46,307 nt of DNA from Alphaproteobacteria bacterium (GTDB taxonomy: Bacteria; Pseudomonadota; Alphaproteobacteria; RF32; CAG-239), in NCBI GenBank assembly GCA_045590955.1, contig JAZNSB010000012.1, positions 1-46,307 of the forward strand, written 5' to 3'. The notes below the pieces were generated by a model that was given only the letters and a program-made list of their open reading frames with translations, made no database searches and was not told where the DNA came from. A program made the translations under genes and the position numbers. Below are positions 20,737-23,665 of the stretch, one piece after another. Position 1 is the first letter of the stretch, and each line of letters begins with the position of its first letter.

Positions 20737-21852
20737 ATGGTAGGGTTCTTTTCAAAATCTAAAAAAAAGCTAATAAAACCATTGACGATGGATATGGTAA
20801 GTGAAGTTCATTGGTCAAGTGTTTCTACAATTAATCAAAATGATGGAAATCCTGACGCAGAAAATTATTCAGGAAAAATTTTAATAAAACAAAGTTTTCA
20901 AAGTGCAAATTTGAAAAATGCAAGTTTTTCTGTAGCAAATTTAACAGAAGCAGATTTTTCAAAAGCAAATCTGGAAGGCGCTGATTTTTCCGGTGCTAAT
21001 CTTACAGGTGTAAATTTTGCCGGAGCAAATCTTTCAGGGGCGGTTTTCAACGGTGCGGTTTTAAAAGAAACAAATTTTACCGGTGCAAATTTGAATGGTG
21101 TCCGCTTAGTTGATGCAGATATTGAAGATGCTATATTGATAGATGCAATTTTAGATGAAATTGCAATTAAAGATTTGCAAGAATTGGTGGAATTTTTGGC
21201 AAAATATTATCCACACAAGCTTAATTTATCTAAATTAAATTTAACAATGCTTGATTTGACCAAGGTTGATTTGACTAAGGTAAATCTTAAAGGTGTGGAT
21301 TTTACCGGTGTTAGTTTTGTGGGAATAAATATATATGAGCTTGATTTGAGTGAATGTGTTATTACTCCGCAACAAATAGAACAAGCCATTGGACATAAGC
21401 CAACTCCGGAAGAATTAAAAAAGATTTTAGCACCTAAACCAAAGCCGAAAGCTTCAAAGCCGCAGTCTGTGGATTTAACATCTATGTTTTATGATGATGG
21501 TTCCGAATTTGGAATGATAAATGCTTGGAAATATAAAGGTTTGGATATTACTAAGCAAATGTTTATTGGAAAACAGGTATTTAAAGACGGAGCCAAAAGG
21601 CCAGAGCAAAAAAATGAACAAGAAGGTGAATCTTTAATAGATTCCAAAGAAATGGCAAAAAGACAGGCAATTAAAAGCAAAATAGAAAAAAGAAAAGAAG
21701 AAGAACGCATTTCAAGACAGCAAAAGAAAAATGAAGTTGAACAACAAATGCAAGAAAAAAAACAAGAAAAAAGCAGTAGAGATGACTTTGATGAACAAAT
21801 AAAACAAAAAATCAAGGACTTTAATTTTAGAGGTAAGGAACGTGATTATTGA
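20737..21852 (+). CDS. Pentapeptide-repeat protein with charged C-terminal tail
   Basis: ANLKNASFSVANLTEADFSKANLEGADFSGANLTGVNFAGANLSGAVF... then a second block NLSKLNLTMLDLTKVDLTKVNLKGVDF; E/K/Q-rich tail. Confidence 0.92.
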   Translation: MVGFFSKSKKKLIKPLTMDMVSEVHWSSVSTINQNDGNPDAENYSGKILIKQSFQSANLKNASFSVANLTEADFSKANLEGADFSGANLTGVNFAGANLSGAVFNGAVLKETNFTGANLNGVRLVDADIEDAILIDAILDEIAIKDLQELVEFLAKYYPHKLNLSKLNLTMLDLTKVDLTKVNLKGVDFTGVSFVGINIYELDLSECVITPQQIEQAIGHKPTPEELKKILAPKPKPKASKPQSVDLTSMFYDDGSEFGMINAWKYKGLDITKQMFIGKQVFKDGAKRPEQKNEQEGESLIDSKEMAKRQAIKSKIEKRKEEERISRQQKKNEVEQQMQEKKQEKSSRDDFDEQIKQKIKDFNFRGKERDY

Positions 21853-23665
21853 AATACTGTTTTTATCATTTGTTGCAGCAAGCGTTCTTTTGTGCCTTAG
21901 ATTGGTAACTTTTATAAAAAAATGTTCTCGTGATGATGCTGTATATAGGCATTTTGCAGAAGAAAAAGATGTAGAAAAAATCGGACTTTTTTCCGGAACT
22001 AAATTTAGGATTGGTTATTTTTTCGGTAAGAAAATCAGGCTTACAGATTCATATCCTTTATTGTTGTTGGGTAAAATAGGTACAAAAAAAACTTCTGCGG
22101 TGGTGGTTCCTAATATACTTGAAAGTAAAAAAAGCCACATGTTTATTGTGGATGAAAAGGGTTCTGTGGCAAGATATACAGCAAGATACAGGAACTCTTT
22201 GGGAAAGACTACAATTTTTGATTGGGACCTTTTGGACAATAAAGATATGTTTGCAAAGTGGAATCCTATGGATGAGCAAAACTTGCCCCAGGATGAAGTT
22301 TTTAGGCAAAAATATATCCAATGTATGGTCAAGGGTTTGTTTTATAATACCAACATCAACCAAGACAAAGAAGATATTTATTGGCAAACAATGGCTGAGA
22401 ATGTTTTAACGGGAATTATGTTTTTTAACATCCAAAGGGTAAAGCAAGCTTGCGCAAATGACTATTTTTTGGAAAAACTTATAAAAGATTTACCTTTGTC
22501 AGAAAATGATAAGCAGATTTTGAACAGTTATTATCAAAATATGCCGGAAAGGTATGTGGCAAAGATTAAAAAACAAATTAAAACACACTCAATAACAATT
22601 AAGAATTATGTTCCTATCGGAAGTTGGGCGGGAATTAAAGAGGCCTGGCGAGGAAGAGAGCTTTCACTTCCAATGATTGCTGATACTTTATACCAAGATT
22701 ATTATGATGCAGAAGCAGATAATGAAGCAAAAATAGTGCAAAATATATTGTATAGATATATGGAAGAGGCAAATTTATTTGCTTATGATTTTGATTACAG
22801 AAAGTATTTTGCAGAAGTTTTTAATATGAGTGAACTGCAATCAAAGGTTTTGTTCGGAAAAATTTTGCAAGCGTTGGCGGTGTTTAAGCAACAGTCGATC
22901 AGAGAAAGATTGTCAGATAATGATTATTGTATGGCAGATATGAGTAAAAAATCTGATGAAAAAATTACGGTGTACAACATAACCAAAAGTAAAAATGCAA
23001 AAATAATTGGGCGAATCTTTACGGATTTGCAGATGATGTATTGCATTTATGCTAGAGGCGAGCAAGATCAAAGTTCGGTATTTGTTTTGGATGACGTAGT
23101 TTTGTTGCCTAAATTAAATTTTCTGACAGAAGCTTTAATGCGGGGACAGTATTACGGAATGCGCTTTTTATTATCTGTCAGAGATTTGAGATTGTTATAT
23201 TATTTGTATGGAAAAGATGATGTGGAATCTATAGTGGCAAATACACCGCATAAGTTGTTGTTTGGAGAAAATGCTGAAGATATATTGTCAAATTTAAATG
23301 GTTTGACCAAATTTGGAACAAAGTCAATTCAAGTACAAAAAACAGAAATTTTATCATTGCTTAAAAATAAAAAAGCTTTGAATGATTCTGCTTATTATAA
23401 AAGAGTGGCATGGTATTTTGAAAAGATTATTAAAAAGAACGTTTGGAACGCAGAAAAGTTTTTGTTTATGCATTCTCAATACTATCATCTGCCAATTTTA
23501 TGTGATAAACGAAGCTTTATTAAAGACGAGTATTTATATGAAAAGAGTCTTGGTGAGTTTATGTGTCAGGTGGATTATGAAACAGTAAAAAATAGAAAAG
23601 AAAAATCTTTGACAGTTCCATGTTTTGAATATAAAACAGAAAAAACAAAACAAAAGCCAAAATAA
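21842..23665 (+). CDS. VirD4/TraG-like type IV coupling protein, motif-degenerate (GTG start; possible frameshifted extension to 23772)
   Basis: N-terminal TM; LLLLGKIGTKKTSAVVVPNIL (Walker A region), FIVDEKG, KWNPMD, YWQTMAENVLTG, VFVLDDVVLLPKL...ALMRGQYYGMRFLLSV...LYGKD..ESIVAN (TraG-D C-terminal pattern). Confidence 0.82.
   Translation: MIIEILFLSFVAASVLLCLRLVTFIKKCSRDDAVYRHFAEEKDVEKIGLFSGTKFRIGYFFGKKIRLTDSYPLLLLGKIGTKKTSAVVVPNILESKKSHMFIVDEKGSVARYTARYRNSLGKTTIFDWDLLDNKDMFAKWNPMDEQNLPQDEVFRQKYIQCMVKGLFYNTNINQDKEDIYWQTMAENVLTGIMFFNIQRVKQACANDYFLEKLIKDLPLSENDKQILNSYYQNMPERYVAKIKKQIKTHSITIKNYVPIGSWAGIKEAWRGRELSLPMIADTLYQDYYDAEADNEAKIVQNILYRYMEEANLFAYDFDYRKYFAEVFNMSELQSKVLFGKILQALAVFKQQSIRERLSDNDYCMADMSKKSDEKITVYNITKSKNAKIIGRIFTDLQMMYCIYARGEQDQSSVFVLDDVVLLPKLNFLTEALMRGQYYGMRFLLSVRDLRLLYYLYGKDDVESIVANTPHKLLFGENAEDILSNLNGLTKFGTKSIQVQKTEILSLLKNKKALNDSAYYKRVAWYFEKIIKKNVWNAEKFLFMHSQYYHLPILCDKRSFIKDEYLYEKSLGEFMCQVDYETVKNRKEKSLTVPCFEYKTEKTKQKPK

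What the first reader, a model, noticed from the sequence alone, without database searches (positions are those of the whole stretch)
21842..23300. The VirD4-like protein has lost its ATPase motifs while keeping the fold
Seen: the Walker A position reads GKIGTKKT (GxxGxGK[ST]-like, with the Gly before Lys replaced by Lys). Walker B reads VLDDV rather than LDEF, and the Q-S-x-x-Q-L motif reads RDLRLL. Surrounding motifs (VVVPNIL, VDEKG, WNPMD, YW...A, LYGKD) are kept over 607 codons with no internal stop. There is also an apparent insertion in the all-alpha domain (RVKQACANDYF...WRGRELS). Inference: a pseudo-ATPase under selection as a scaffold, adaptor or hetero-hexamer partner of an active VirD4 elsewhere.
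Basis: partly seen in the sequence, partly recalled or inferred. Interest (0 to 1): 0.62.

Follow-up and report, generated by a model that had tools for sequence, protein, structure and literature searches.

The report
Second VirD4-like protein losing its ATPase
This gene is one genome's copy of a second, fast-evolving VirD4-type coupling protein found across a family of uncultured gut Alphaproteobacteria; it has a damaged ATP-binding loop but keeps the partner-binding parts, so it is probably a non-catalytic helper of the normal VirD4 encoded elsewhere.

Summary
ORF 21842-23665 is a type IV coupling protein (T4CP) with a TrwB/Cagbeta-like predicted fold. Its Walker A reads GKIGTKKT, whereas the Gly before Lys is invariant in 88 relatives.

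Three details need correcting:
- Walker B "DD" and the lost motif-III Gln are not special to this gene. They are fixed in the whole clade of positional orthologues.
- The "insertion" (ANDYFL...W.G) is the most conserved part of every relative, including the intact paralogue.
- The ORF is not complete. It lacks the first transmembrane helix and loop. The clade's conserved C-terminal motif (DWWLxExxF...NPF) lies after the stop codon in the -1 frame, behind a short A-run.

An intact T4CP (GTGKT / VLDEF / GQD) sits on another contig, beside a single VirB-type T4SS. The paralogue evolves 5-8 times faster than the intact one in every genome, yet under purifying selection (dN/dS 0.04-0.16). It has been cleanly deleted in 10 of 24 genera.

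P-loop decay recurs in other lineages. Each time the nucleotide-binding domain erodes while the all-alpha domain and C-terminal motif persist.

Best reading: a non-catalytic T4CP-like receptor or adaptor (about 0.55). Main rival: a young pseudogene (about 0.25). Read data could not be consulted.

The parts
20682..20710 (+). sigma-70-like promoter site (TTGAAA-17-TATAAT, with TG) just upstream of the pentapeptide gene; possible promoter of a two-gene operon
   Evidence: 11 of 12 matches. The number of such sites in the region is not above the shuffle expectation, so this is weak evidence.
20734..21852 (+). pentapeptide-repeat protein gene (372 aa); overlaps the T4CP start by 11 nt; conserved upstream partner of the paralogue
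   Evidence: Pfam Pentapeptide 2.9e-31. It lies immediately upstream of the T4CP in more than 60 species and in a more distant clade. It is present in all 23 near-complete genomes of the family, even where the T4CP paralogue is deleted.
21842..23665 (+). main open frame of the T4CP paralogue (607 aa, GTG start with GAGG/AAGGA upstream)
   Evidence: It is the positional orthologue of ~780-aa proteins between the pentapeptide gene and mgsA. AlphaFold2 model pLDDT 88, pTM 0.87. Foldseek best matches are Cagbeta 8DOL (E 4.5e-14) and TrwB.
21845..21916 (+). single N-terminal transmembrane helix (residues 2-25); equals TM2 of the orthologues, whose TM1 and periplasmic loop (~95 aa) are missing here
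   Evidence: Alignments. The model shows a helix over residues 2-33. tblastn finds no remnant of the orthologues' first 95 residues upstream.
22070..22093 (+). deviant Walker A, GKIGTKKT; Lys82 (22085-22087) replaces the invariant Gly; the change creates an A8 run at 22084-22091
   Evidence: Lys83 and Thr84 are kept.
22367..22912 (+). all-alpha domain (residues 176-357) with the ANDYFL and Y.PIGSW...W.G motifs; the best-conserved part of the protein
   Evidence: 31 of 36 columns that are at least 90% conserved among orthologues are kept here, against 36 of 57 in the nucleotide-binding domain (Fisher p=0.019). The motifs are invariant in all 64 relatives.
23078..23098 (+). Walker B, VFVLDDV (Asp-Asp instead of Asp-Glu); this is the clade-wide state
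   Evidence: DD is found in nearly all positional orthologues. The canonical paralogue has DE, and a distant clade mixes DE and DD.
23168..23197 (+). motif III region, LLSVRDLRLL; Arg447 stands where active T4CPs have the NTP-cleft Gln
   Evidence: Gln in 97% of canonical and distant sequences. The 72 paralogues show Asn 43, Asp 22 and a few others. The role of the Gln is described in PMC2653234.
23634..23665 (+). zone where frame 0 and the -1 frame are both open; holds an A6 run (23640-23645) and further A-runs, then the frame-0 stop TAA at 23663-23665; site of the frame break
   Evidence: Three-frame translation.
23644..23772 (+). C-terminal segment in the -1 frame: NKTKAKIKEPKQKNASDVEGDWWLDEQNFEKTQTINKINPFS*, carrying the clade's conserved motif (DWWLDEQNF at 23704-23730; NPF at 23758-23766; stop TAG at 23770-23772)
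   Evidence: tblastn with orthologue C-termini (E down to 8e-7). Translation. In the read-through alignment 8 of 8 conserved C-tail columns are kept.
23789..25093 (+). mgsA/rarA (AAA+ ATPase gene); the conserved downstream neighbour that fixes the orthologous position
   Evidence: Pfam MgsA_C 1.3e-60. 73-80% identical in more than 55 related loci.

Best explanation
The gene encodes this genome's copy of a lineage-wide second type IV coupling protein. That protein arose by duplication of a VirD4-type T4CP in small-genome, uncultured gut Alphaproteobacteria. It sits at a fixed chromosomal site: pentapeptide-repeat gene, then the T4CP paralogue, then mgsA.

The whole paralogue clade has given up residues used for ATP hydrolysis: the Walker B Glu, the motif III Gln and a conserved Arg 18 residues after Walker B. 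Most members keep the P-loop. In this genome, and independently in several other lineages, the P-loop has decayed too.

Selection appears to preserve three things: the folded body, above all the all-alpha domain (the substrate/partner-binding domain of T4CPs), and a short C-terminal docking motif (DWWLxExxF...NPF).

Inferred mechanism: the protein is anchored in the inner membrane by one helix and works as a non-catalytic receptor or adaptor. It binds a partner or cargo through the all-alpha domain and the C-terminal motif. For energy and channel coupling it relies on the intact VirD4 (contig C37) and on VirB4/VirB11 of the single VirB-type T4SS.

Shown: orthology, motif states, domain-wise conservation, purifying selection in relatives, the predicted fold, and the existence of the intact paralogue.

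Inferred: loss of ATPase activity, the adaptor role, and cooperation with the intact VirD4.
For: Orthology and context:
- Conserved synteny in more than 60 species.
- The gene falls inside a 100%-supported paralogue clade.
- An intact T4CP lies on C37.
- The genome has one VirB-type T4SS: VirB11, a giant VirB10, VirB9, two VirB8, VirB4 and VirB2.

Catalytic residues:
- Clade-wide loss of the Walker B Glu, the motif III Gln and a conserved Arg.
- The P-loop Gly, invariant in 88 relatives, is Lys here.
- P-loop decay recurs in other lineages. G004 has TQDSNLKT. P0053 has TTKNSLNP and is 48% identical to G004; both are intact 693-aa proteins. P0045, P0046, P0049, P0054 and P0058 are further cases.

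What is kept:
- In P-loop-degenerate members the all-alpha domain keeps 78-89% of conserved columns. The nucleotide-binding domain keeps 51-63% in all but P0046 (74%). Members with an intact P-loop and a Walker B Asp-Asp (P0026, P0028, P0030, P0038) keep 91-98% of the nucleotide-binding domain. The C-tail motif is mostly kept.
- For this gene the figures are 31/36, 36/57 and 8/8, with p=0.019.

Selection and rate:
- The clade is under purifying selection, dN/dS 0.04-0.16.
- The window copy shows no extra acceleration. Its paralogue-to-canonical distance ratio is 5.7, against 7.1 for other genome pairs.
- The frame has no stop in 607 codons where about 54 are expected.
- The predicted fold is that of a T4CP.
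Against: - No biochemical data exist. Lys83 and Thr84 are retained, so nucleotide binding may survive.
- Asp-Asp in Walker B also occurs among presumably active members of a distant clade. DD alone does not prove inactivity.
- The C-terminal motif is out of frame in the assembly. If that is real, the protein lacks one of the two elements proposed to be under selection.
- The gene was cleanly deleted in 10 of 24 genera of the family. This genome is the smallest of those compared (1.2 Mb). Ongoing loss is therefore plausible.
- This copy keeps fewer conserved columns (64%) than its neighbouring genes do (74-89%).
- No relative above 37% identity exists in 1.8 billion representatives. Selection on this particular copy could not be measured.
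- The AlphaFold model rests on an alignment of orthologues, so it cannot by itself show that this copy still folds.
Confidence: 0.55

Rival explanations
1. The gene is a young pseudogene, or a gene on its way to being lost. Genome reduction in this lineage has begun to dismantle a dispensable paralogue through N-terminal truncation, a P-loop hit and a 3' frameshift. The long open frame persists only because the lesions are recent.
For: - A frame break separates the conserved C-terminal motif from the body.
- TM1 and the loop are missing.
- The paralogue is cleanly absent from 10 genera.
- This is the smallest genome in the set.
- This copy has the lowest retention of conserved columns among all orthologues (64%), lower than for its neighbouring genes.
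Against: - About 54 stops are expected in 607 random codons and none is seen.
- Its divergence is in proportion to the genome-wide long branch.
- 63% of conserved nucleotide-binding-domain columns and 86% of all-alpha-domain columns survive a terminal branch of about 1.9 substitutions per site.
- The out-of-frame C-terminal motif is still perfect (8 of 8 columns). The frame break is therefore very recent, an assembly error, or bypassed.
- Single-TM forms also exist in other genera with intact P-loops (P0034, L075). The N-terminal truncation is thus not in itself decay.
Confidence: 0.25
2. The protein is still a working ATPase and coupling protein. The Gly-to-Lys change is tolerated because Lys83 and Thr84 remain, and Asp-Asp is a workable Walker B. 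It would act as a dedicated second coupling protein that feeds its own set of substrates to the T4SS.
For: - Walker Lys and Thr and both Walker B acidic residues are kept.
- Most clade members conserve GKT strictly, which argues that nucleotide binding matters in the family.
- DD and DE interchange within a distant clade that keeps the motif III Gln.
Against: - The replaced Gly is invariant in the 88 relatives first examined. It is lost only in lineages whose nucleotide-binding domain is eroding as a whole.
- The clade lacks the motif III Gln of the NTP cleft and a conserved Arg (PMC2653234).
- TM1 and the loop are absent. From general knowledge of TrwB and VirD4, this region mediates contact with VirB10.
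Confidence: 0.12
3. The deviant features are artefacts of a metagenome assembly: consensus errors in A-runs at the P-loop (A8) and at the 3' end (A6).
For: Both odd sites lie in homopolymer A-runs. The sequence comes from a 67-contig draft assembly.
Against: - GGN to AAA needs two substitutions, not an indel. Substitution errors in a consensus are rare.
- All other genes checked in the window and in the T4SS loci are intact and full length.
- The many other lineage-specific substitutions cannot be assembly errors.
- Only the 3' frame break could plausibly be an error.
Confidence: 0.05

Closest known systems
TrwB (plasmid R388), VirD4 (Agrobacterium) and Cagbeta/Cag5 (Helicobacter pylori, PDB 8DOL): classical type IV coupling proteins
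   Same: The domain plan is the same: a membrane anchor, a RecA-like nucleotide-binding domain and an inserted all-alpha domain. The Pfam families match above cut-off. A profile of relatives hits Cagbeta (2e-9). The predicted fold matches Cagbeta (E 4.5e-14) and TrwB (target TM-score up to 0.69).
   Different: - One transmembrane helix instead of two.
- Walker A Gly replaced by Lys, Walker B DD instead of DE, and motif III Gln replaced.
- A larger all-alpha domain with subfamily-specific motifs (ANDYFL, PIGSW).
- A C-terminal DWW...NPF motif.
- Encoded at a housekeeping locus, away from T4SS genes, and present as a second copy beside an intact T4CP.
Rickettsia VirB4b / RvhB4-II: duplicated VirB4 with altered NTP-binding cleft (PMC2653234)
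   Same: Both are duplicated T4SS ATPases in reduced-genome Alphaproteobacteria. Both are encoded away from the other T4SS genes and are more divergent than their intact twins. Both have substitutions at critical NTP-cleft residues but a conserved full-length frame. Either neofunctionalisation as a non-powering scaffold or pseudogenisation has been proposed for VirB4b. The T4SS here also shows duplicated components: two VirB8 and at least two VirB2.
   Different: - It is a different ATPase family of the machine (VirB4 rather than the coupling protein).
- Rickettsia VirB4b is kept in all species, whereas this paralogue was deleted in many genera.
- No such case for a coupling protein was found in the searchable literature.
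DotL/IcmO, the coupling protein of type IVB (Dot/Icm) systems
   Same: The orthologues have a similar length (~780 aa) and a long C-terminal tail that could dock partners, as the DotL tail does (my recollection, not tested here).
   Different: No sequence match to any solved DotL chain, either with a profile or with the intact paralogue. No NCBIfam Dot/Icm coupling-protein match. The genome's T4SS is VirB-type. This was rejected as a family assignment.

Membership tests
Type IV coupling protein (VirD4/TraG/TrwB; Pfam PF02534, PF10412) | Sequence match to the family models above the curated cut-off | tested here: met
   PF02534 scores 71.5 bits (cut-off 20.1) and PF10412 scores 40.2 bits (cut-off 20.5). 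All NCBIfam subfamily models score far below their cut-offs.
Type IV coupling protein (VirD4/TraG/TrwB; Pfam PF02534, PF10412) | RecA-like nucleotide-binding domain with an inserted all-alpha domain, as in TrwB | tested here: met
   AlphaFold2 model pLDDT 88, pTM 0.87. Foldseek top hits are Cagbeta 8DOL and TrwB 1E9S/1GKI, followed by HerA and VirB4. Caveat: the model depends on the orthologue alignment.
Type IV coupling protein (VirD4/TraG/TrwB; Pfam PF02534, PF10412) | N-terminal anchor of two transmembrane helices with a periplasmic loop | tested here: not met
   Only one hydrophobic helix is present (residues 2-25). The orthologues' first ~95 residues are absent.
Type IV coupling protein (VirD4/TraG/TrwB; Pfam PF02534, PF10412) | Walker A GxxGxGK[ST] | tested here: not met
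   The motif reads GKIGTKKT, while the Gly before Lys is invariant in 88 relatives.
Type IV coupling protein (VirD4/TraG/TrwB; Pfam PF02534, PF10412) | Walker B hhhhDE and the motif III Gln of the NTP cleft | tested here: not met
   The protein has VLDD, and Arg at the Gln position. Both changes are shared with the whole paralogue clade. DD also occurs in a distant clade that keeps the Gln, so DD alone is inconclusive.
Type IV coupling protein (VirD4/TraG/TrwB; Pfam PF02534, PF10412) | ATP hydrolysis, hexamer formation and substrate transfer to a T4SS | not testable with these tools
   No biochemical or interaction data are available. A VirB-type T4SS is present in the genome.
Lineage-specific pentapeptide-linked T4CP paralogue (defined here) | Position between the pentapeptide-repeat gene and mgsA; DD Walker B; no motif III Gln; C-terminal DWW...NPF motif; clade membership in the tree | tested here: met
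   Synteny, motifs, tree with 100% support. The C-terminal motif is present but lies in the -1 frame.
Pseudogene | Frame disruption relative to orthologues | tested here: met
   The last ~43 codons, with the conserved motif, are in the -1 frame after a TAA stop. Whether this is real could not be checked against reads.
Pseudogene | Evolution at the neutral rate, or lineage-specific acceleration | tested here: inconclusive
   There is no acceleration relative to the canonical paralogue (ratio 5.7 against 7.1) and no stops. However, retention of conserved columns is the lowest of all orthologues. Distances are near saturation, and no close relative exists for a dN/dS estimate.
DotL/IcmO (type IVB coupling protein) | Sequence relation to DotL and association with Dot/Icm genes | tested here: not met

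The most novel reading that the evidence does not exclude
A whole family of uncultured gut Alphaproteobacteria carries a second coupling protein. It has been converted from a motor into a non-hydrolysing receptor, keeping ATP binding at most and often not even that. Only its all-alpha domain and its C-terminal DWW...NPF docking motif are indispensable, and it hands cargo to the intact VirD4 of a single VirB-type T4SS. The window's copy is one of several independent end-states, with the P-loop and TM1 gone. This would be the first described pseudo-ATPase coupling protein, the counterpart for VirD4 of Rickettsia's VirB4b.
Probability: 0.35. Interest if true: 0.6.

Novelty: new variant of a known kind. 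Interest (0 to 1): 0.45.

Why it matters
Coupling proteins are regarded as the ATP-driven gatekeepers that select substrates for type IV secretion. A conserved second copy that repeatedly sheds its ATPase residues while keeping its substrate-binding domain and a docking tail would separate the two jobs in nature: recognition and energy supply. It would give a handle on what the all-alpha domain and C-terminal tails do on their own.

It would also add a second example, after Rickettsia VirB4b, of duplicated T4SS ATPases turning into non-catalytic parts in reduced genomes. And it would point to an unstudied secretion system in common, uncultured gut Alphaproteobacteria.

For this single gene the significance is modest. 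It is one, possibly decaying, member of that family.

Tried and rejected
- **DotL/IcmO assignment.** This was my first guess, based on length and C-terminal tail. I rejected it because there were no PDB or NCBIfam matches and the T4SS is VirB-type.
- **Lineage-specific rate acceleration as a sign of decay.** Not found. Identity ratios to neighbouring genes, maximum-likelihood distance ratios to the canonical paralogue and a concatenated neighbour-gene tree all show that the whole genome is long-branched.
- **Closer relatives for dN/dS.** None exist. The best is 34% identical in the word-based search and 37% in the exhaustive search of 1.84 billion representatives.
- **Population data.** The frame break and the P-loop codons could therefore not be checked against reads, and no pN/pS could be computed.
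- **Functional dependence between the pentapeptide protein and the paralogue.** Not supported. The pentapeptide protein is equally conserved in genomes that deleted the paralogue.
- **Shared origin of the N-terminal truncation in the window and in L075/G017.** Not supported by the neighbour-gene tree, though branches are long.
- **A canonical -1 slippery heptamer at the frame break.** None is present. There are only A-runs and an 'A AAA TAA' context.
- **Names for relatives.** None are on record.
- **Earlier notes of this scan.** Nothing relevant.
- **Literature on degenerate coupling-protein paralogues or on this bacterial lineage's T4SS.** Nothing found.
- **Mapping of the conserved Arg to the TrwB arginine finger.** This could not be verified from the papers reached and is left as inference.
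Full report
**What is there**

The window is contig C12 of a 1.2-Mb, 67-contig, about 99% complete genome. Related loci carry record titles of uncultured gut Alphaproteobacteria from humans, ruminants and chickens.

ORF 21842-23665 (+, GTG start, 607 aa) has a Shine-Dalgarno-like GAGG/AAGGA upstream. It matches Pfam T4SS-DNA_transf and TrwB_AAD_bind above their cut-offs. All NCBIfam subfamily models score far below theirs.

An AlphaFold2 model built on 64 relatives is confident (pLDDT 88, pTM 0.87). 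Its best PDB matches are the coupling proteins Cagbeta (8DOL, E 4.5e-14) and TrwB (target TM-score up to 0.69), followed by HerA, VirB4 and DndH. It is therefore a VirD4-type coupling protein (T4CP) by sequence and predicted fold.

My first guess, DotL, failed. No solved DotL chain is matched. The genome's secretion system is VirB-type: VirB11, a 1888-aa VirB10, VirB9, two VirB8, VirB4 and VirB2 pilins.

**The motifs**

- **Walker A** reads GKIGTKKT, from codons GGT AAA ATA GGT ACA AAA AAA ACT at 22070-22093. In 88 relatives the Gly before Lys is invariant, and only the window has Lys.
- **Walker B** reads VLDD, and the motif III Gln is replaced by Arg. These are not peculiarities of this gene. 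Nearly all positional orthologues have Asp-Asp, with Asn/Asp/Ser at the Gln position, while mostly keeping GxGKT.
- **Other clade-wide losses.** Columns that are at least 95% conserved in the intact paralogue and a distant clade, but lost in the 72 paralogues, include the motif III Gln and an Arg 18 residues after Walker B. The Gln is part of the NTP-binding cleft of coupling proteins (PMC2653234).
It is a subfamily feature of the all-alpha domain that the generic Pfam model does not cover.

**Orthology and family history**

The order SPOR-lipoprotein, pentapeptide-repeat gene, T4CP, mgsA and further genes is conserved in more than 60 species. The window gene is therefore the positional orthologue of ~780-aa proteins that are 27-34% identical to it. 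It falls inside a paralogue clade with 100% support.

The same genome has an intact-looking T4CP on contig C37 (739 aa; GTGKT, VLDEF, IGQDLGQI).

Of the 24 genomes searched in the family, 14 have both copies. Nine have only the intact one and one (G007) gave no match. All ten that lack the paralogue keep the pentapeptide gene. Where the downstream DNA could be compared, mgsA follows it directly; at one locus (G010) mgsA was not detected. A more distant clade also has the pentapeptide-T4CP pair, with DE or DD plus the Gln, so the pair is old.

**Rates and selection**

The paralogue evolves 5-8 times faster than the intact T4CP in every genome pair. The window's pairs are not unusual, with a ratio of 5.7 against 7.1.

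The window's genome is long-branched for all genes.

Close orthologue pairs give dN/dS of 0.04-0.16 for the paralogue. That resembles its neighbouring genes and exceeds mgsA. The clade is therefore fast but constrained.

For the window copy itself no relative above 37% identity exists among 1.84 billion representatives, so no dN/dS is possible. Indirect evidence of constraint: no stop in 607 codons where about 54 are expected.

**Truncations**

Compared with the orthologues, the first ~95 residues (TM1 and a loop with conserved P, Y and W) are absent, with no remnant upstream. One helix (residues 2-25) remains. Single-helix forms with intact P-loops exist in other genera (L075/P0041 and P0034).

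At the 3' end, the clade's conserved C-terminal motif lies after the TAA stop in the -1 frame...GDWWLDEQNFEKTQTINKINPFS*, 23644-23772. Both frames are open over 23634-23665, a stretch of A-runs. One extra A would join them into a ~644-aa protein that aligns to the orthologues' ends, with 8 of 8 conserved columns kept.

Because the motif is perfect on a branch of about 1.9 substitutions per site, the break is either very recent, an assembly error, or bypassed. No canonical slippery heptamer is present.

**Where conservation sits**

Among columns at least 90% conserved in 61 orthologues, the window copy keeps the following:

| Region | Columns kept |
|---|---|
| All-alpha domain | 31 of 36 |
| Nucleotide-binding domain | 36 of 57 |
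| C-tail (read through) | 8 of 8 |

The difference between the first two is significant (Fisher p=0.019).

The same pattern recurs wherever the P-loop has decayed:

- G004 has TQDSNLKT, P0053 TTKNSLNP, P0045 ..STSKT, P0049 ..GASKI and P0054 ..NSLKT.
- In these five members the all-alpha domain keeps 78-89% of conserved columns and the nucleotide-binding domain 51-63%. P0046 (..GNNKT), which also lost the Gly, is less eroded: it keeps 74% of nucleotide-binding-domain columns and only 1 of 8 tail columns.
- Four members checked with an intact P-loop and a Walker B Asp-Asp (P0026, P0028, P0030, P0038) keep 91-98% of the nucleotide-binding domain. Other intact-P-loop members, several with a damaged Walker B or an N-terminal truncation, keep only 61-79%.
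- G004 and P0053 are only 48% identical, yet both are intact 693-aa proteins without a P-loop. A P-loop-less form has therefore been maintained through long divergence.

**Interpretation**

The most likely role is a membrane-anchored, non-catalytic receptor or adaptor. It would act through the all-alpha domain and the C-terminal motif. It would depend on the intact VirD4 and on VirB4/VirB11 for energy. This is inference.

The pentapeptide protein is co-located and probably co-transcribed (11-nt overlap; promoter-like site at 20682-20710). It is equally conserved where the paralogue is deleted, so it is not an obligate partner.

The main rival is decay. Its grounds are the smallest genome, repeated deletion of the gene elsewhere, the frame break, and the lowest retention of conserved residues among orthologues. 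Residual ATPase activity cannot be excluded, because Lys83, Thr84 and both acidic Walker B residues remain.

**Comparison with what is known**

The closest precedent is Rickettsia VirB4b/RvhB4-II. It is a duplicated, divergent VirB4 encoded away from the other vir genes, with seven substitutions in the NTP cleft. It has been proposed to be either neofunctionalised as a non-powering part or a pseudogene (PMC2653234).

I found no report of an equivalent coupling protein. I therefore class this as a new variant of a known kind.

It is of moderate interest at the family level and of modest interest for this single, possibly decaying, copy.

Noticed in passing
window 22084-22091: The Gly-to-Lys change in the P-loop creates an A8 homopolymer (ACA AAA AAA ACT) inside the coding sequence. 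Such a run is prone to slippage.
   Followed up: no
window 20734-21852: The pentapeptide-repeat protein has strongly conserved non-repeat motifs (LQELVEYLAKYYPHKLNL, DLSECIITPQQIxQAxG, a Lys/Glu-rich tail ending R-G-x-R-E-R). It is present in all 23 near-complete genomes of the family, even where the T4CP paralogue is deleted. Its function is unknown.
   Followed up: partly
window 18953-20677: A 574-aa lipoprotein-like protein with a C-terminal SPOR domain lies upstream of the pentapeptide gene in about 60 species and evolves fast (about 28% identity to orthologues). The genome's VirB9 homologue also ends in a SPOR domain (C19:24931-26460).
   Followed up: partly
own genome, contig C19:14868-31490 (not in window): The VirB-type T4SS cluster has a giant VirB10 (1888 aa). 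A neighbouring 1137-aa protein is made of many short repeats of the type 'G.V.D..G..IG'. There are also two VirB8 paralogues and a 1065-aa coiled-coil-rich protein.
   Followed up: partly
own genome, contig C37:16111-17887 (not in window): Directly upstream of the intact T4CP are two proteins (416 and 160 aa) with similar N-termini (..NWHFDIF..W..W.. followed by a hydrophobic stretch) and no Pfam match. They may be T4CP-associated membrane partners.
   Followed up: partly
loci L078-L096: A more distant clade of gut Alphaproteobacteria also has a pentapeptide gene immediately upstream of a T4CP (~715-740 aa). Its Walker B is DE in some members and DD in close relatives, with the motif III Gln kept (VQDWHQI).
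   Followed up: partly
window 23729-23756: A promoter-like site (TTGAAA-16-TAAAAT) for mgsA lies inside the out-of-frame C-terminal segment of the T4CP gene.
   Followed up: no
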